Positions 3,170 through 43,366 of a stretch of DNA of 64,000 bases are shown here, piece by piece (position 1 is the first letter of the stretch; each line of letters starts with the position of its first letter). The translations under genes were made by a program, and so were the position numbers. The notes beneath the pieces were generated by a model. That model ran no database searches. It was not told the origin of the DNA and was given only the letters and a program-made list of their open reading frames with translations. Source of the DNA: Shigella phage SP18. Location of the stretch: the sequence record GQ981382; one strand, given 5' to 3'.

Positions 3170-3475
3170 TTAGATTTTGTTTTCCTGCACACCATAATAA
3201 AGTTCATCAGACACAATATCCAGGATGCGGCGAACATATTCATCATGGTATTGACAGTCAAAATCAAATGTAACAGTAGTTTCCGCTTCACGAGTGAATT
3301 TAACTTGCACATTCAGGTGATTAACAACGTTAGTTAATTTATCAGTAAAGAACTCTTTTGCTACCGCCTGTTGGACTTGCACTTTGAACTTGGTGTTACG
3401 AATCATATTTTCAGCAGATGCGAAATTACCAGTTTTATCAAAGTCAACAAGCGCCATGTTGATGATGAATTTCAT
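3170..3475 (-). CDS. hypothetical protein
   Basis: 101-aa ORF; GGAGAATAAA-ATG RBS; early promoter repeat upstream. Confidence 0.55.
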   Translation of the reverse strand: MKFIINMALVDFDKTGNFASAENMIRNTKFKVQVQQAVAKEFFTDKLTNVVNHLNVQVKFTREAETTVTFDFDCQYHDEYVRRILDIVSDELYYGVQENKI

Positions 3476-3496
3476 TTTATTCTCCAGTGTTTTATT

Positions 3497-3545
3497 GTGT
3501 AACTCAGTATGGAATCATTATGCCTTAAAGCAGGGGGCTTGTATA
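3497..3545 (-). promoter_or_regulatory. sigma70-like early promoter repeat (-35 TATACA, 17 bp, -10 CATAAT, conserved leader GATTCCATACTGAGTTACAC); -35 lies in loop of the upstream terminator hairpin
   Basis: One of three near-identical 26-nt copies (3497, 4543, 41998). Confidence 0.5.
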
Positions 3546-3557
3546 CCCCCTTTTTGA
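3531..3557. terminator. hairpin GGGGG-CTTGTATA-CCCCC followed by TTTTT (plus side); overlaps early promoter -35
   Basis: GC stem plus T-run. Confidence 0.4.
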
Positions 3558-3558
3558 A

Positions 3559-4002
3559 TTAAATTTCAAATTCTTTGCGGAAGTTGGAAGCATAAGACTG
3601 AACTGATGCTTTGTTGAATCCAAACTCACGCACAATCATATCAATAACAGCCCTACGAGCGGCACCATTAGACATATTGACAGTTTTGAACATATCATAG
3701 CATAAATCTTTGTTGCTCATACCGGAGCGTTTAGGTGTCTTACGTTCAGTTTTTGGTTCAGTCTTAGGAGTAGGTTTAACTTCTGGTTTAACCTGTCCAT
3801 CATTCAGACCTTTAAAAATTTTACCTGCCAGAGTTGCCAGTTTAGCAGCTTCGCCACGAGTGATACCAAATACTGCCGGGTTAAATGAAATACCTTCAGC
3901 TGTCAGACGTTTAAAGAACATACGTGCGGCGGATTGTGCTTCAGCTTCAGAAGAGTTGTTTAATGCCAGTTTAACATACTTAACCAGTTTTGAAGTTTTC
4001 AT
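3559..4002 (-). CDS. hypothetical protein sharing a C-terminal domain (AARRAxID...VQSYASNFRK) with the upstream paralog
   Basis: Internal ATG at 4000-4002; C-terminal 45 aa alignable with gene 4086-4511. Confidence 0.55.
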   Translation of the reverse strand: MKTSKLVKYVKLALNNSSEAEAQSAARMFFKRLTAEGISFNPAVFGITRGEAAKLATLAGKIFKGLNDGQVKPEVKPTPKTEPKTERKTPKRSGMSNKDLCYDMFKTVNMSNGAARRAVIDMIVREFGFNKASVQSYASNFRKEFEI

Positions 4003-4037
4003 TTTATTATCCCGTTTGTTTATTTGGTAACTCAATA

Positions 4038-4073
4038 TGGGATAATTATACACTATCCCACCTGGAAGTAAAA
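4038..4073 (-). promoter_or_regulatory. early promoter variant with -10 TATAAT in loop of inverted repeat TGGGATA/TATCCCA; -35 TTTTAC
   Basis: Related to the TATCCCAT promoter family; upstream of gene 3559-4002. Confidence 0.45.
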
Positions 4074-4085
4074 CACTTTTCTCAA

Positions 4086-4511
4086 TTATTTTTGAGCTTT
4101 GCGGAAGTTGGATGCATATGACTGAACAACAGTCTTTTTGATATCATGGGTGGTAACCAGAACATCAATCAGAGCGCGACGAGCTGCATTATCATTCATA
4201 TCAATTTCTGAAAATGCCTGGAAGCAAATGTCACGAGCGTTACCAGATTTGGACTGGATTTTTTCTTCTTTAACTTCTTCAATTGGGAATTCAATCATTT
4301 CAGCTTGGATTAATTCAATGATAGATTCTTTTGACTGTTTGGTGTTTACCTTCAGTTCAGAATTAAGGGACTTGGCGATGGCAACAATCTGGGTTGAAGT
4401 CAGATGAATAAGTGCATCTTCACGAATGCAGATTTCACATACTTCGTCAGCAACCATTTTGTTGGTGATGCGGGTAACAGAGAATGCAGAGGTCAGGGTC
4501 AGGAAGTTCAT
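4086..4511 (-). CDS. hypothetical protein, paralog of 3559-4002
   Basis: ATG at 4509-4511 with GGAG RBS; C-terminal ...NAARRALIDVLV...VVQSYASNFRK. Confidence 0.55.
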   Translation of the reverse strand: MNFLTLTSAFSVTRITNKMVADEVCEICIREDALIHLTSTQIVAIAKSLNSELKVNTKQSKESIIELIQAEMIEFPIEEVKEEKIQSKSGNARDICFQAFSEIDMNDNAARRALIDVLVTTHDIKKTVVQSYASNFRKAQK

Positions 4512-4542
4512 TTTATTTCTCCAAAGTTTTGTTTGATTCAGT

Positions 4543-4591
4543 GTGTAACTCAGTATGGAATCATTATGCACCCGGTCAATTCGGATGTACA
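4543..4591 (-). promoter_or_regulatory. sigma70-like early promoter repeat (-35 TGTACA, 17 bp, -10 CATAAT, conserved leader)
   Basis: Immediately downstream of minus-strand terminator and upstream of gene 4086-4511. Confidence 0.5.
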
Positions 4592-4630
4592 CTACTTTTT
4601 GAAGAAAATTTCAAATTTATTCGGGGTATA

Positions 4631-4659
4631 AAAAAAGCCCCAACCTTTCGGAAGGGGCT
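4631..4659 (-). terminator. rho-independent terminator (AGCCCC-loop-GGGGCT then U7 on minus strand) downstream of tRNA region
   Basis: Stem 4636-4641/4654-4659, A-run 4631-4636 on plus. Confidence 0.6.
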
Positions 4660-4660
4660 A

Positions 4661-4860
4661 TACCTTGTCGGGGTTCCACCTGCAAGGCAAGTGTTTGTAC
4701 GAAACGCCGGGATTCGAACCCGGTTATTAAGCAGTTGACGCTACTCAATATTTTTAAAAGGCCATATCTCGACCATATCCGAACGTTCCGTCAAAAACGC
4801 TACTCGGCTTACGGCAAAGATATTTCCTCGAATCGATAATTCGGTGCGCCGTTTCAGCTG
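4661..4860 (-). ncRNA. candidate stable RNA with a perfect tRNA-like T-arm (CCGGG-TTCGAAT-CCCGG) that does not fold as a canonical tRNA
   Basis: No ORF over about 300 nt between tRNA cluster and terminator; T-arm at complement 4704-4720; possible acceptor-like pairing CGGAACG/CGTTTCG. Confidence 0.3.
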
Positions 4861-4960
4861 TGAGATAAGGGACTTTAAGAGGTCAACTCATGTACGCCTT
4901 AAAGTCGGGTCTTATTCAGGGAACTTCAGTCCGACGACTTACCGGTAGCGACCCGGTTTC

Positions 4961-5200
4961 TCATTCAATTGTAATAGCTAATTTGACTTTAACAACCTTA
5001 TAATTGGAATCAAGGTCATTGAATTCCATAAAATTTGTTGCTAATCTGCGAGTCGGGAAACTTAGATATTTATTATGCTCAGGTGGAGCAGTTAATGCAA
5101 ACCATGGGACTTGTTTATCATTTTCATCAAACTCATCAAAGCTATAAACCAGCTCGTTGCTGGTTATATCCATAACTGCATATGATTCACTAATAACCAT
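4961..5200 (-). CDS. hypothetical protein
   Basis: ORF track 79 aa immediately downstream of tRNA cluster. Confidence 0.45.
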   Translation of the reverse strand: MVISESYAVMDITSNELVYSFDEFDENDKQVPWFALTAPPEHNKYLSFPTRRLATNFMEFNDLDSNYKVVKVKLAITIE

Positions 5201-5215
5201 AATATCCTCAGTAAT

Positions 5216-5291
5216 TGGTCGAGACAGTAGGGATCGAACCTACGACCTAGGACTTAGAAGGTCCTTGCTCTTCCTTCTGAGCTATGCCTCG
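5216..5291 (-). tRNA. tRNA-Arg (anticodon UCU), CCA encoded
   Basis: Manual cloverleaf: acceptor CGAGGCA/TGTCTCG, D-stem GCTC/GAGC, anticodon stem AGGAC/GTCCT with loop CTTCTAA, T-arm GTAGG-TTCGATC-CCTAC. Confidence 0.8.
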
Positions 5292-5298
5292 TAATTTG

Positions 5299-5370
5299 CG
5301 GACACACATGGATTCGAACCATGGACCAATTGATTAACAGTCAACTGCTCTACCACTGAGCTATGCATCC
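5299..5370 (-). tRNA. tRNA-Asn (anticodon GUU), CCA not encoded
   Basis: Manual cloverleaf: D-arm GCTC-AGTGGTA-GAGC, anticodon loop CTGTTAA, T-arm CATGG-TTCGAAT-CCATG, acceptor with two G-U pairs. Confidence 0.75.
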
Positions 5371-5374
5371 AAAT

Positions 5375-5449
5375 TGGTGGCCCTTGCTGGTTTCGATCCA
5401 GCTACCTATCAGTTATGAGCTGACAGCTCTCCCATTGAGCTAAAGGGCC
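5375..5449 (-). tRNA. tRNA with CAU anticodon (Met or Ile2), CCA encoded
   Basis: Manual cloverleaf: acceptor GGCCCTT/AAGGGCC, D-arm GCTC-AATGGGA-GAGC, anticodon loop CTCATAA, T-arm GCTGG-ATCGAAA-CCAGC. Confidence 0.75.
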
Positions 5450-40083: not shown

Positions 40084-41643
40084 ATGAAAAAGAATGCATT
40101 AGTTCAAAAATGGTCCGCTCTGTTGGAAAACGAAGCTCTTCCGGAAATCGTTGGTGCTTCTAAACAAGCTATCATCGCTAAAATCTTTGAAAACCAGGAA
40201 CAAGATATTCTGACCGCTCCTGAATACCGTGACGAAAAAATCTCCGAAGCATTTGGTTCTTTCCTGACCGAAGCTGAAATCGGTGGTGACCATGGTTATG
40301 ATGCTACCAATATCGCTGCTGGCCAGACCTCTGGTGCAGTAACTCAGATTGGGCCGGCAGTTATGGGTATGGTTCGTCGTGCTATCCCGCATCTGATTGC
40401 GTTTGATATTTGTGGCGTACAGCCTCTGAACAACCCGACTGGCCAGGTATTTGCACTGCGTGCAGTATACGGTAAAGACCCTGTCGCTGCTGGTGCTAAA
40501 GAAGCTTTCCATCCGATGTATGCTCCGAACGCTATGTTCTCTGGTCAGGGCGCTGCTCAGACTTTTGAAGCACTGGCTGCAAGCAAAGTTCTGGAAGTTG
40601 GTAAAATTTATTCTCACTTCTTCGAAGCAACCGGTTCTGCACACTTCCAGGCCGTTGAAGCTGTAACCGTTGATGCCGCTGCTACTGATGCTGCTAAACT
40701 GGATGCCGCCGTAACCGCTCTGTTGGAAGCTGGTAAGCTGGCTGAACTGGCTGAAGGTATGGCTACCTCCATCGCCGAACTGCAAGAAGGTTTTAACGGT
40801 TCCCAGGATAACCCGTGGAACGAAATGGGCTTCCGTATCGACAAACAAGTTATCGAAGCTAAATCTCGTCAGCTGAAAGCAAGCTACTCCATCGAACTGG
40901 CACAGGACCTCCGCGCTGTTCACGGTATGGATGCTGATGCCGAATTGAGTGGTATTCTGGCTACCGAAATTATGCTAGAAATCAACCGCGAAGTTATCGA
41001 TTGGATTAACTACTCCGCACAGGTTGGTAAATCTGGTATGACCAACACCGTTGGCGCTAAAGCTGGTGTGTTTGACTTCCAGGACCCGATTGATATCCGT
41101 GGTGCTCGTTGGGCTGGTGAAAGCTTCAAAGCTTTACTGTTCCAGATTGATAAAGAAGCCGCTGAAATCGCTCGTCAGACCGGTCGTGGTGCAGGTAACT
41201 TCATCATCGCTTCCCGTAACGTAGTTAACGTGCTGGCTGCTGTTGATACTTCTGTTAGTTATGCTGCTCAGGGTCTGGGTAAAGGTTTCAACGTTGACAC
41301 CACTAAAGCTGTGTTCGCCGGTGTTCTGGGTGGCAAATACCGTGTCTATATCGACCAGTATGCTCGTGCAGACTATTTCACCATCGGTTACAAAGGCGCT
41401 AACGAAATGGATGCTGGTATCTACTACGCACCATATGTTGCACTGACCCCGCTGCGTGGCTCTGACCCGAAAAACTTCCAGCCGGTTATGGGCTTCAAAA
41501 CCCGTTACGGTATCGGTATCAACCCGTTTGCTGACCCTGCTGCTCAGGCTCCGACCAAGCGCATTCAGAACGGCATGCCGGACATCGTTAACAGCCTTGG
41601 CTTGAACGGTTACTTCCGCCGCGTATATGTTAAAGGAATTTAA
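40084..41643 (+). CDS. 23: gp23 major capsid protein
   Basis: 519 aa; near-identical to recalled T4 gp23 over long stretches. Confidence 0.95.
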   Translation: MKKNALVQKWSALLENEALPEIVGASKQAIIAKIFENQEQDILTAPEYRDEKISEAFGSFLTEAEIGGDHGYDATNIAAGQTSGAVTQIGPAVMGMVRRAIPHLIAFDICGVQPLNNPTGQVFALRAVYGKDPVAAGAKEAFHPMYAPNAMFSGQGAAQTFEALAASKVLEVGKIYSHFFEATGSAHFQAVEAVTVDAAATDAAKLDAAVTALLEAGKLAELAEGMATSIAELQEGFNGSQDNPWNEMGFRIDKQVIEAKSRQLKASYSIELAQDLRAVHGMDADAELSGILATEIMLEINREVIDWINYSAQVGKSGMTNTVGAKAGVFDFQDPIDIRGARWAGESFKALLFQIDKEAAEIARQTGRGAGNFIIASRNVVNVLAAVDTSVSYAAQGLGKGFNVDTTKAVFAGVLGGKYRVYIDQYARADYFTIGYKGANEMDAGIYYAPYVALTPLRGSDPKNFQPVMGFKTRYGIGINPFADPAAQAPTKRIQNGMPDIVNSLGLNGYFRRVYVKGI

Positions 41644-41666: not shown

Positions 41667-41695
41667 GGGACCCTTGAGGTCCCTTTCTTGTTTTC
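41667..41695. terminator. hairpin terminator GGGACC-CTTGA-GGTCCC between gene 23 and the minus-strand gene 41694-41975
   Basis: 6-bp GC-rich stem, T-rich 3' flank. Confidence 0.65.
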
Positions 41696-41975
41696 ATACC
41701 ATACCATTTAAATGAACTTCTACTCGGCGCTTGATAAGGTCTCTGAAGTTAACATTGTTTTCTTGAAGTTTCAACCAGTTACCATTTTTATCTTTAGTGT
41801 GAGTAGAATAATTACCATTCCACCAGAAATCAGTGTCATATGCTAAGTTTTCATATTTTTTAACTAGTTTGTTCAGAGCATTACCATTAACACCATTTGG
41901 GTATTTGTTAACCAAGGCAATAACTTCAATTTCCAGATTTTTAAAGGTGTTCAGAAGGAAAGTTGCTTTGTTCAT
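41694..41975 (-). CDS. hypothetical protein between genes 23 and 24
   Basis: 93-aa ORF with GGAG RBS and early promoter repeat upstream. Confidence 0.55.
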   Translation of the reverse strand: MNKATFLLNTFKNLEIEVIALVNKYPNGVNGNALNKLVKKYENLAYDTDFWWNGNYSTHTKDKNGNWLKLQENNVNFRDLIKRRVEVHLNGMV

Positions 41976-41997
41976 TTTTAAACTCCAGGTTTTGTTT

Positions 41998-42045
41998 GTT
42001 AACTCAGTATGGAATCATTATGTCTTATCTTAATCTGGTTGTAAA
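41998..42045 (-). promoter_or_regulatory. sigma70-like early promoter repeat (-35 TTTACA, 17 bp, -10 CATAAT, conserved leader)
   Basis: Upstream of gene 41694-41975. Confidence 0.5.
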
Positions 42046-42052
42046 CAACTTT

Positions 42053-42060
42053 TATAAATA
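42053..42060 (+). promoter_or_regulatory. late promoter TATAAATA upstream of gene 24
   Basis: Exact consensus 26 nt before ATG. Confidence 0.65.
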
Positions 42061-42085
42061 AAGTATATCACAAAAGGAAATAGCA

Positions 42086-43366
42086 ATGGCTAAAATTAAC
42101 GAACTCTTAAAAGAGTCGACCACGACCACAAGTTCTTCGATTGGTCGACCGAATCTAGTAGCTTTAACCAGAGCTACGACTAAACTGATTTACACCGATT
42201 TAGTAGCACAACAGCGCACATCCCAGCCACTGGCGGCATTATACGGTCTTAAATACCTGACTCAGCAAGATGAATTATCTTTCCAGACTGGTGCAACCTA
42301 TTCCGGTGCAGTATCAGTAAAAGACCGTGCGACCATTCCGGTTTTTGTTGCTGGCGCAGTTTATGCTAAAGACGATTTGTTCCAGTTTGAAAATGTAGTT
42401 TATAAAGCGCTGGTAGCAACTCCATTTGCTGGAGCAACGGGCGATGAGTATGACCAGCTTCAAGAAGCGATGGTTAAATTGACCATCCGTATTATGTCCG
42501 AAGCTGCAATCACCGAACGTTTTGAAGGACCACAGGAAGTCGAAATTGCCGAAGCTAAATTTTTGGTTAACAAATGGAATGCTCCGGTTAAATCTCGTAA
42601 GCTGAAAAGCACTGTTACAGTGGAACTGGCCCAGGACCTGGAAGCAAACGGTTTTGACGCTCCAAACTTCCTGGAAGACCTGTTAGCTACCGAAATGGCT
42701 GATGAAATTAACAAAGATATCCTGCAATCCCTGGTAACAGTTTCCAAGCGTTATAAAGTTGCTGGGCTATGTGATGATGGCCTGATTGACCTGTCTTATA
42801 CTAACTCTCCGGAAGCTTCACGCAAGTTGTACGAAATCATGTGTGAGATGGTCTCCCATATTCAGCGGGCAACTTCTTACACCGCAACATACGTTGTTGC
42901 TTCTACGCGTGTAGCTGCAGTTTTGGCTGGTTCCGGTTGGTTGAAGCATCGTCCACAAGATGAGAAATATCTCTCCGATAATGCGTATGGTTTCTTGGAT
43001 AATGGTCTACCGCTTTATTGCGATACGAACACTCCATTTGATTATGTGACTGTTGGTGTTAAAGAAGATTTCGGTGGGAAAGAGATGGTGGGTTCACTGT
43101 TTTATGCACCTTATACCGAAGGTCTTGACCTGGAAGACCCTGAACATGTTGGTTCGTTCAAAGTTGTCGTTGACCCAGAAAGTTTGCAGCCGTCTATTGC
43201 ATTAATGGTTCGTTATGCGTTAGCAGCTAACCCTTATACAGTGACTGCTGATGATAAACAAGCTCGTATTATTGATGCAACAAATATGGATTTGATGGCA
43301 GGACGTTCAGATATGTCTGTACTGCTTGGTGTGAAACTTCCTAAAGTTCTGACTGAAATAAATTAA
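42086..43366 (+). CDS. 24: gp24 head vertex protein
   Basis: 426 aa; late promoter at 42053-42060. Confidence 0.9.
   Translation: MAKINELLKESTTTTSSSIGRPNLVALTRATTKLIYTDLVAQQRTSQPLAALYGLKYLTQQDELSFQTGATYSGAVSVKDRATIPVFVAGAVYAKDDLFQFENVVYKALVATPFAGATGDEYDQLQEAMVKLTIRIMSEAAITERFEGPQEVEIAEAKFLVNKWNAPVKSRKLKSTVTVELAQDLEANGFDAPNFLEDLLATEMADEINKDILQSLVTVSKRYKVAGLCDDGLIDLSYTNSPEASRKLYEIMCEMVSHIQRATSYTATYVVASTRVAAVLAGSGWLKHRPQDEKYLSDNAYGFLDNGLPLYCDTNTPFDYVTVGVKEDFGGKEMVGSLFYAPYTEGLDLEDPEHVGSFKVVVDPESLQPSIALMVRYALAANPYTVTADDKQARIIDATNMDLMAGRSDMSVLLGVKLPKVLTEIN

What the first reader, a model, noticed from the sequence alone, without database searches (positions are those of the whole stretch)
3559..4511. 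Two tandem early genes sharing a conserved C-terminal domain
Genes 3559-4002 and 4086-4511 differ at the N-terminus but end with an alignable 45-aa segment (ARDICFQAFSEIDMNDNAARRALIDVLV...VVQSYASNFRK versus KDLCYDMFKTVNMSNGAARRAVIDMIV...SVQSYASNFRKEFEI). Each has its own early promoter. A shared C-terminal module on different N-terminal domains suggests a common interaction or targeting domain.
Basis: seen in the sequence. Interest (0 to 1): 0.45.

Follow-up and report, generated by a model that had tools for sequence, protein, structure and literature searches.

The report
Shared helix-turn-helix-like domain in two phage genes
Two neighbouring small genes of a T4-like coliphage end in the same roughly 50-residue three-helix domain, which probably binds DNA, attached to unrelated front halves; the similarity is real, but this is an ordinary uncharacterised phage family whose function is still untested.

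The parts
4086..4511 (-). Gene B, 141 aa (phrog_9997): N-domain, acidic linker and shared C-domain
   Evidence: ORF. phrog_9997 E=2.4e-71. Full-length homologs at 51-57% identity among the metagenome proteins and in Erwinia RF1; 42-45% in Acinetobacter T4-like phages and about 28-33% in Rosemountvirus. AlphaFold pLDDT 85.5.
4278..4511 (-). B N-terminal domain (aa 1-78): three short strands plus helices 31-36, 39-49 and 61-74. Helices 39-49 and 61-74 with the loop between them read as a helix-extended loop-helix (Rho_N/SAP-like) motif.
4089..4238 (-). B shared C-terminal domain (aa 92-141), helices 92-100, 108-122 and 126-140
   Evidence: Invariant C96, F100 and V129-Q-S-Y132, S134.
3559..4002 (-). 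Gene A, 147 aa (phrog_18416): helical N-domain, Lys/Pro-rich linker and shared C-domain
   Evidence: ORF. phrog_18416 E=1.5e-92. Homologs at 47-62% identity. AlphaFold pLDDT 72.7. Net charge +13.
3811..4002 (-). A N-terminal helical domain (aa 1-64): hairpin of helices 3-15 and 19-36, then helices 42-45 and 49-58
   Evidence: Found only in Gaprivervirus, Morganella MP1, Erwinia RF1 and a few metagenome contigs. The resemblance to DUF2786 is only a weak lead (E=0.16 in 1 of 26 members).
3715..3810 (-). A disordered basic linker (aa 65-96, KPEVKPTPKTEPKTERKTPKR), with a variable number of PK[AT]E units in close relatives
   Evidence: pLDDT below 50 for residues 65-91. The EAWsc9 ortholog is 8 residues longer in this stretch.
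3562..3714 (-). A shared C-terminal domain (aa 97-147), helices 97-105, 113-127 and 131-145
   Evidence: Invariant C101, F105 and V134-Q-S-Y137, S139.
4512..4597 (-). Promoter-leader cassette before B: -35 TGTACA, -10 CATAAT, conserved 23-mer at 4545-4567, GGAG Shine-Dalgarno
4629..4659 (-). Terminator-like hairpin (AGCCCCTTCC-GAAA-GGTTGGGGCT followed by T7) just upstream of B's promoter. It closes the preceding transcription unit.
   Evidence: Read directly from the sequence. The scan tool did not call it because of two internal mismatches. The same arrangement occurs before the B ortholog in L007.
4003..4085 (-). Promoter-leader cassette before A: TTTACT-16-TATAAT (4072-4045), diverged 23-mer at 4027-4049 (3 mismatches)
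3476..3558 (-). Third copy of the cassette directly after A: G5-loop-C5 stem-loop (3532-3551) overlapping the -35, and the 23-mer at 3499-3521. It drives the unrelated 101-aa gene at 3170-3475.
   Evidence: The 101-aa product is phrog_7474, unknown function.

Best explanation
Genes A and B are two old paralogs of a small, phage-restricted family. The family is defined by a C-terminal domain of about 50 residues that folds as a three-helix, helix-turn-helix-like bundle. This module is fused to unrelated N-terminal domains. In B the N-domain is a small beta-plus-helix domain with a helix-extended loop-helix motif. In A it is an all-helical domain followed by a histone-tail-like Lys/Pro-rich linker. 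Elsewhere the module stands alone.

My proposal is that the third helix (VQSYxSNxRK) is a recognition helix that docks on nucleic acid, most likely double-stranded DNA. Its conserved polar residues Q, S, S, N, R and K lie where the exposed face should be, judged from sequence periodicity. The N-terminal parts would supply extra DNA contacts, oligomerisation or an effector activity.

Each gene is an independent unit made of a terminator or stem-loop, a sigma70-type early promoter and a conserved leader with a GGAG Shine-Dalgarno. This is a PeSL-type mobile cassette. The products would therefore be made immediately after infection, and the genes are shuffled among T4-like genomes.

Shown here: the paralogy, the modularity, the predicted fold, the cassette structure and the distribution. 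Inferred: early timing, nucleic-acid binding and the target.
For: Paralogy and modularity:
- BLASTP E=1e-17.
- hhalign of the C-terminal parts gives 99.7%, of the N-terminal parts 0.1%.
- Stand-alone forms exist: P0025-27 and VR7ORF277c.
- The family has only about 13 true representatives at 50% identity among 1.84 billion proteins.

Fold:
- Both models give three helices in the C-domain, with block pLDDT of about 84-90.

Sequence:
- The domain profile's best PDB match is a homeodomain (2da3_A). It improved from E=0.046 to E=0.0061 when the profile was widened.
- hhalign against a verified homeodomain profile places C/F on L16/F20, Y on W48, N on N51 and R on R53, with P=0.007-0.011.
- The helix-2/turn/helix-3 stretch fits the classical HTH pattern: hydrophobic at positions 4, 8, 10, 15 and 18, and G/N/D at the turn (my reading).
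- A-type proteins are strongly basic, +8 to +13.

Cassette:
- The 23-mer occurs 4 times in the window against 0 expected.
- It occurs 9 times per Gaprivervirus genome, and 3 of those 9 precede the three family genes.
- The promoter form matches the PeSL consensus TTTACW-N17-TAYWAT reported for the PST/T4 pair (PMC4122927).
Against: - There is no significant sequence match to any curated DNA-binding family. Pfam shows nothing at E<=1 for HTH, homeodomain or BEN. hhalign probability to homeodomains is only 3.8-5.7%.
- The C-domain alone is only mildly basic, mostly 0 to +5 with two members slightly negative (-1, -2). B-type proteins are neutral to acidic overall, -6 to +4.
- I could not inspect model coordinates, so surface exposure of the conserved residues is inferred from helical periodicity only.
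- No experimental data on expression, binding or phenotype were found.
Confidence: 0.5

Rival explanations
1. The C-domain is a protein-binding module. Either it docks all paralogs on one conserved host protein (for example RNA polymerase, a nucleoid protein or a chaperone), or it mediates homo- or hetero-oligomerisation among the paralogs. Any DNA contact would then come from the N-domains and linker. This is essentially the first reader's reading.
For: - The helix-3 motif is almost unchanged in phages of Escherichia, Salmonella, Erwinia, Morganella, Providencia and Acinetobacter, including non-T4-like Rosemountvirus. That fits a target conserved across these hosts.
- The C-domain is only weakly basic.
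- Three paralogs per genome could form mixed oligomers.
- The stand-alone copy lies 3 nt upstream of motA, the middle-transcription activator.
Against: - The invariant residues are polar (Q, S, S, N, R, K) and fall on the predicted exposed face of a helix-turn-helix arrangement. That is more typical of nucleic-acid recognition than of a protein interface.
- The best fold and sequence matches are DNA-bound domains.
- A and B occur without each other in many phages, so hetero-oligomerisation cannot be the essential role.
Confidence: 0.3
2. The proteins bind RNA (tRNA precursors or early mRNA leaders) rather than DNA.
For: - In Gaprivervirus, Providencia phage PSTRCR_127 and Acinetobacter phage ZZ1 the genes lie next to the phage tRNA cluster.
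- The family genes all carry the same conserved transcribed leader.
Against: - The tRNA region is a known variable region where unrelated small ORFs accumulate, so proximity is weak evidence.
- Rosemountvirus homologs are not near tRNA genes.
- The conserved leader also precedes unrelated genes, and it is absent from Rosemountvirus, ZZ1 and RF1, although the recognition helix there is the same.
- No Rfam element lies in the region apart from the tRNAs.
Confidence: 0.12
3. The proteins, at least A, are packaged basic internal head proteins injected with the DNA, like T4 IPI-III, which are encoded nearby.
For: - A is small and very basic, +13.
- It begins MKT... and lies in the e-segB-ipI part of the map.
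Against: - No L/I-x-E capsid-targeting cleavage motif is visible near the N-terminus, and no late promoter TATAAATA lies upstream (sequence reading).
- B-type and stand-alone members are not basic.
- The family also occurs in unrelated 53-kb myoviruses.
Confidence: 0.03

Closest known systems
PHROG families phrog_18416 (A), phrog_9997 (B) and phrog_17275 (stand-alone domain)
   Same: Full-length matches at E=1.5e-92 and 2.4e-71. Each protein also cross-hits the other two families through its C-terminal 50-70 residues.
   Different: These are automatic clusters with no assigned function. The link between the three through one shared domain is not recorded in them.
Homeodomain and homeodomain-like tri-helical HTH (Pfam PF00046; PDB 1du0, 1pog, 2da3)
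   Different: There is no statistically secure sequence relationship (hhalign 3.8-5.7%; one PDB hit at E=0.006; no Pfam hit). The loop between helices 1 and 2 is four residues longer. The domain is much less basic. It lacks the WF pair, and the N-terminal arm is weak or absent. The family is phage-only.
BEN domain (Pfam PF10523; PDB 4x0g, Bsg25A bound to DNA)
   Different: Only about half of the 108-residue BEN chain is covered. Sequence identity is 4-13%, and there is no Pfam BEN hit.
PeSL (promoter-early stem-loop) mobile regulatory cassettes of T4-type phages (Arbiol et al. 2010, PMC2839356; Comeau et al. 2014, PMC4122927)
   Same: A composite of stem-loop and sigma70-like early promoter, repeated through the genome. 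It flanks small ORFs in variable regions and coincides with gene insertions and rearrangements between close relatives.
   Different: Here the most conserved part is the -10 box plus about 17 nt of transcribed leader (ATAATGATTCCATACTGAGTTAC). It is 100% identical between phages whose A and B proteins are only 55-62% identical. Gapriverviruses were not among the phages analysed in those papers (no occurrence of VR7 in PMC4122927).
Domain-shuffled small DNA-binding regulators of DNA viruses (Bro-N, KilA-N, Ant-type architectures; my own knowledge, Iyer, Koonin and Aravind 2002)
   Same: One small nucleic-acid-binding module combined with varied partner domains in phage early or accessory genes.
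   Different: No sequence relationship was detected to any of those domains.

Membership tests
PHROG phrog_18416 / phrog_9997 / phrog_17275 | Significant full-length HMM match | tested here: met
   A: phrog_18416, E=1.5e-92, 1-147/147. B: phrog_9997, E=2.4e-71. Both hit phrog_17275 (71 aa) through the C-domain, at 7.6e-07 and 3e-09.
Homeodomain (PF00046) | Three-helix HTH fold of about 60 residues | tested here: met
Homeodomain (PF00046) | Significant sequence or profile match to the family | tested here: not met
   No Pfam hit at E<=1 in 26 members. hhalign probability 3.8-5.7%, P about 0.01. A single PDB homeodomain hit at E=0.006.
Homeodomain (PF00046) | Signature W48-F49-x-N51-x-R53 in helix 3, L16/F20 in helix 1, and a basic N-terminal arm | tested here: inconclusive
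   Y-A-S-N-F-R aligns in register: aromatic, Asn and Arg are kept and F49 is lost. C/F fall on L16/F20. The arm is basic in A types and weak in B types.
Homeodomain / HTH | Sequence-specific DNA binding through helix 3 | not testable with these tools
   Needs EMSA, ChIP or a structure.
BEN domain (PF10523) | Profile match and the complete helical BEN fold of about 90-100 residues | tested here: not met
Rho_N / SAP helix-extended loop-helix (B N-domain) | Profile match to Rho_N or SAP, and the two-helix motif | tested here: inconclusive
DUF2786 (PF10979) (A N-domain) | Pfam match above the gathering score | tested here: not met
   Only one of 26 scanned members matches, at E=0.16. The window protein has no hit.
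PeSL mobile early cassette | Sigma70-like early promoter (TTTACW-N17-TAYWAT in the PST/T4 pair) joined to a stem-loop | tested here: met
   TTTACT-16-TATAAT before A, and G(T/A)TACA-17-CATAAT before B and the 101-aa gene. Stem-loops at 3532-3551 and 4636-4659. Consensus quoted from PMC4122927.
PeSL mobile early cassette | Repeated in the genome, flanking variable small ORFs, and associated with indels between close relatives | tested here: met
   4 copies in the window and 9 per VR20, VR25 and VR26 genome, before 8-9 different small ORFs. An extra 98-aa cassette gene lies between B and A in VR20 and VR25. Two genes present upstream of B in EAWsc9 are absent from the window.
Known anti-defence or defence proteins (PADLOC) and NCBIfam families | Any HMM match | tested here: not met
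   PADLOC gave 0 hits. NCBIfam gave only a chance-level hit, 16 bits against a cut-off of 200.

The most novel reading that the evidence does not exclude
The C-domain is a previously undescribed, phage-specific homeodomain-like DNA-binding module. It sends three differently equipped paralogs (A, B and the stand-alone copy beside motA) to one and the same conserved site on host or phage DNA within the first minutes of infection. That would make it a new family of host-takeover or nucleoid-targeting proteins spread by mobile promoter cassettes. A more speculative version is that the site is the conserved promoter-leader 23-mer itself, giving the cassettes their own regulator.
Probability: 0.25. 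Interest if true: 0.55.

Novelty: new member of a known kind. Interest (0 to 1): 0.3.

Why it matters
T4-like phages carry scores of small early genes of unknown function in their variable regions. These genes are a major reservoir of host-takeover and anti-defence activities. Three otherwise unlinked orphan families turn out to share one helix-turn-helix-like module with an almost invariant recognition-type helix. That gives a concrete, cheap hypothesis to test: DNA binding, and mutation of Q, S, N and R in VQSYxSNxRK. It also justifies a curated domain entry that would annotate these proteins in Gaprivervirus, Morganella, Providencia, Erwinia and Acinetobacter T4-like phages and in Rosemountvirus. 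The very strong conservation of the promoter-leader cassette extends the PeSL concept to another genus. None of this overturns current understanding.

Tried and rejected
1. Homology of the N-terminal halves. A weak tblastn hint (28% over 53 aa, E=0.7) was rejected by hhalign (0.1% probability) and by the different predicted secondary structures.

2. Recent gene conversion between A and B. A 40-nt block around VQSYASNFRK is 38/40 identical. However, orthologs in other phages use nearly the same codons, and A and B still differ at synonymous sites. Amino-acid constraint plus low codon degeneracy explains the block.

3. The 23-mer leader as a family-specific operator. All three family genes carry it, and in locus L007 only the two family genes do. 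But 6 of the 9 copies per genome precede unrelated ORFs. Rosemountvirus, ZZ1 and RF1 homologs lack it, yet keep the same recognition helix. I keep it only as a low-probability variant.

4. Curated family assignment. Pfam, NCBIfam, PADLOC and PDB sequence searches gave nothing significant. Weak PBP_like hits (best E=0.0046, below cut-off) and a CT847 effector hit (16 bits against 200) are treated as chance.

5. The 'RNA polymerase sigma factor' label under a BLAST hit in phage DCP80. It belongs to a neighbouring plus-strand gene in a rearranged record, not to A or B.

6. Tandem DNA repeats in the A linker. None was detected; the length variation is visible only at the protein level.

7. Literature searches on VR7 and on DUF2786 yielded no functional information.

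8. A profile search of the 5.8-billion-protein index with the domain alignment returned only 4 hits because of its word filter. The exhaustive representative search was used instead.

9. The pairwise identity matrix was computed with five A-type sequences accidentally truncated at a second Cys. The corrected alignment is A9. The conclusion that C-domains group roughly by N-terminal type rests and is only moderately supported.

Full report
**What is there**

The finding lies in a run of small minus-strand ORFs. Gene B is 4086-4511 (141 aa, MNFLTLTSAF...). Gene A is 3559-4002 (147 aa, MKTSKLVKYV...). The window is a Gaprivervirus, a T4-like coliphage of the VR7/VR26 group. The 1.4-kb stretch is 95-99% identical to about 33 such genomes. 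In annotated relatives it lies between the e.6-like gene and the tRNA cluster, in the e-segB-ipI part of the T4 map. Three tRNA genes follow at 5216-5449.

**Check of the observation**

- BLASTP of A against B gives 42% identity over 73 residues, E=1e-17, restricted to the C-terminal part.
- tblastn shows that these are the only two copies in the window.
- I built family alignments of the two halves from orthologs. hhalign gives 99.7% probability (E=2e-25, 50 columns) for the C-terminal parts and 0.1% for the N-terminal parts.

The N-termini are not merely diverged; they are unrelated at the level a profile can see. The predicted structures agree: B has strands plus helices, while A is all-helical.

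**Family and distribution**

Neither protein matches Pfam, NCBIfam, PADLOC or any PDB sequence. They belong to PHROGs 18416 and 9997. Through the C-domain they also match phrog_17275, a 71-aa family. All three have unknown function.

An exhaustive HMMER search with the C-domain profile against 1.84 billion cluster representatives found only about 13 true members. The architectures found are:

- A type;
- B type;
- a divergent A type (P0031, P0035);
- an A type with an insertion (P0034, 198 aa);
- stand-alone domains of 69-74 aa.

B-type proteins occur full-length in Acinetobacter T4-like phages, in the unrelated 53-kb Rosemountvirus group and in Erwinia phage RF1. The A-type N-domain is confined to Gaprivervirus, Morganella phage MP1, Erwinia RF1 and a few metagenome contigs.

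Every Gaprivervirus has a third paralog, a stand-alone 71-72-aa copy about 95 kb away and outside this window. In VR7 its stop codon is 3 nt before the start of motA.

The Providencia stand-alone protein looks like a B type that lost its N-domain. It shares its first 10 residues, its C-terminal tail and 66% domain identity with the B-type protein P0030.

A and B are neighbours in the window, in contig L007 and in RF1, where an HNH-like ORF lies between them. VR20 and VR25 carry an extra 98-aa gene between them. Morganella MP1 has the order A, other gene, B. Many phages have only one type. The two are old paralogs that travel independently, not an obligate pair.

**Structure**

AlphaFold2 with the family alignments gave pLDDT 85.5 for B and 72.7 for A.

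- B has an N-domain (residues 1-78: three short strands and helices 31-36, 39-49, 61-74), a low-confidence acidic linker, and C-domain helices 92-100, 108-122 and 126-140.
- A has a helical N-domain (helices 3-15, 19-36, 42-45, 49-58), a disordered Lys/Pro-rich linker (residues 65-91, pLDDT below 50), and C-domain helices 97-105, 113-127 and 131-145.

**Sequence-level resemblance to homeodomains**

- The C-domain profile's best hit in the PDB is the ZFHX3 homeodomain 2da3_A. With a broader profile the E-value improved from 0.046 to 0.0061. The alignment runs from helix 2 through the turn into helix 3 (...GLKKRVVQVWFQN against ...GfkKrvVQSYaSnY).
- hhalign against a homeodomain alignment gives only 3.8-5.7% probability (P about 0.01).
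- The register is the one expected from the fold. The invariant C/F pair falls on L16/F20, Y on W48, N on N51 and R on R53.
- The stretch also obeys the classical HTH pattern: hydrophobic at positions 4, 8, 10, 15 and 18, and G/N/D at the turn. This is my reading of alignment A9.
- Helical periodicity puts V, Y, A and F/Y on the buried face. Q, S, S, N, R and K, the most conserved residues of the family, fall on the exposed face.

I take this as a working resemblance to a recognition helix, not as membership of the homeodomain family. The profile test for membership was run and not met.

**Charge**

A-type proteins carry +8 to +13 net charge. B types carry -6 to +4. The C-domain itself mostly carries 0 to +5, with two members slightly negative. 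This supports nucleic-acid binding for A. It is neutral evidence for the domain as such.

**Regulatory context**

The three intergenic regions before the 101-aa gene, before A and before B are homologous. Each has an A-rich stretch, a -35 of the form GT(T/G/A)TAC, a spacer of about 17 nt, (C/T)ATAAT, a conserved leader GATTCCATACTGAGTTAC, and a GGAG (GGGA for A) Shine-Dalgarno.

The scan tool calls TTTACT-16-TATAAT before A and TGTACA-17-CATAAT before B. A G5-loop-C5 stem-loop overlaps the -35 downstream of A (3532-3551). A terminator-like hairpin followed by a T7 run precedes B's promoter (4629-4659).

The 23-mer ATAATGATTCCATACTGAGTTAC occurs four times in the window, with none expected by chance. 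The fourth copy (41999-42021) drives a 93-aa ORF wedged between genes 23 and 24.

In IMG/VR the exact core occurs nine times in each of VR20, VR25 and VR26. Three of the nine copies precede the three family genes. The others precede unrelated small ORFs. In contig L007 the A and B proteins are only 55-62% identical to the window's. There the 23-mer is 100% identical, and within 8.9 kb it occurs only before B and A.

This is the composite promoter plus stem-loop cassette (PeSL) described for T4-type phages as a vehicle of modular shuffling. The PST/T4 pair's consensus is TTTACW-N17-TAYWAT (PMC4122927; PMC2839356).

Early timing is inferred from these features, and from my own knowledge that T4 RegB cleaves GGAG in early Shine-Dalgarno sequences. 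It was not measured.

**How it most likely works**

My best-supported reading (confidence about 0.5) is as follows. A and B are immediate-early, cassette-borne small proteins. Their common C-domain is an HTH-type module that docks on nucleic acid, most likely dsDNA, through the invariant helix 3. The N-domains and A's basic linker add affinity, oligomerisation or an effector function.

The helix is unchanged in phages of enterobacteria and Acinetobacter, and in phages that lack the cassette. The ligand is therefore more likely a conserved host feature or generic DNA than a phage-specific operator.

Lesser rivals are RNA binding (about 0.12) and a packaged internal protein (about 0.03).

**Novelty and score**

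The proteins are already in databases as hypothetical proteins and in PHROGs. What is new here:

- the explicit link of three orphan families through one module;
- the HTH or homeodomain-like fold assignment;
- the third paralog beside motA;
- the cassette context.

That makes this a new member of a known kind: a modular small HTH-type phage early protein on PeSL-type cassettes. It is useful for annotation and easy to test, but not surprising to a specialist. Interest is 0.3.

Noticed in passing
window 41694-42070 (minus strand): A fourth copy of the promoter-leader cassette (23-mer at 41999-42021, 1 mismatch, preceded by GTTTAC) drives a 93-aa ORF (41694-41975). The ORF is inserted on the opposite strand between the major capsid gene 23 (40084-41643) and gene 24 (42086-43366). 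It looks like a mobile early cassette sitting inside the late structural block.
   Followed up: partly
outside the window; VR7 locus L010 3501-3716: All Gapriverviruses carry a third, stand-alone copy of the shared domain (71-72 aa, VR7ORF277c). It lies about 95 kb from the A/B pair, between gene 52 and motA. Its stop codon is 3 nt before the motA start, and the identical cassette lies upstream.
   Followed up: partly
window 4660-4960: About 300 nt has no minus-strand ORF of 60 aa or more, between the terminator-like hairpin upstream of B and the 79-aa gene (4961-5200). Phage EAWsc9 has two extra genes in this position (185 aa DUF7338-like and 128 aa), and CJ20 has a 231-aa gene. This is an indel hot spot; the stretch in the window may be a deletion scar.
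   Followed up: no
window 3715-3810 (A linker): The number of PK(A/T)E units in the Lys/Pro-rich linker differs between near-identical phages (147 aa here, 155 aa in EAWsc9). Tandem Repeats Finder detects no DNA repeat.
   Followed up: partly
loci L014 and L023 (VR20, VR25); L002 (CJ20): VR20 and VR25 have an additional 98-aa gene with its own cassette between B and A. CJ20 has a gap of about 450 nt between A and B where the window has 84 nt. The spacing of the 'tandem pair' is variable within the genus.
   Followed up: partly
window 5216-5449: The tRNA cluster here is Arg(tct), Asn(gtt), Met(cat). The EAWsc9 record annotates only Arg and Ile2(cat) at the homologous place. Either the tRNA content differs within the genus or the CAT-anticodon tRNA is annotated differently.
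   Followed up: no
L003 2450-2674 (Providencia phage PSTRCR_127) compared with P0030: The 74-aa stand-alone protein keeps the first roughly 10 residues (MNFxxLTTxFA) and the C-terminal tail (...AQANS) of a 146-aa B-type protein. It appears to be a B type with its N-domain deleted in frame.
   Followed up: partly
L006 2941-3444 (Erwinia phage RF1): A 167-aa ORF with an HNH-like motif sits between the B-type and A-type genes. It may be a homing endonuclease inserted into the pair.
   Followed up: no
window 3476-3490, 4512-4527; loci L003, L007, L008, L010: Nearly all genes behind this cassette use a GGAG Shine-Dalgarno 6-9 nt before ATG. GGAG is the motif cleaved by T4 RegB in early mRNAs (my own knowledge). 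I did not check whether this phage encodes RegB.
   Followed up: no
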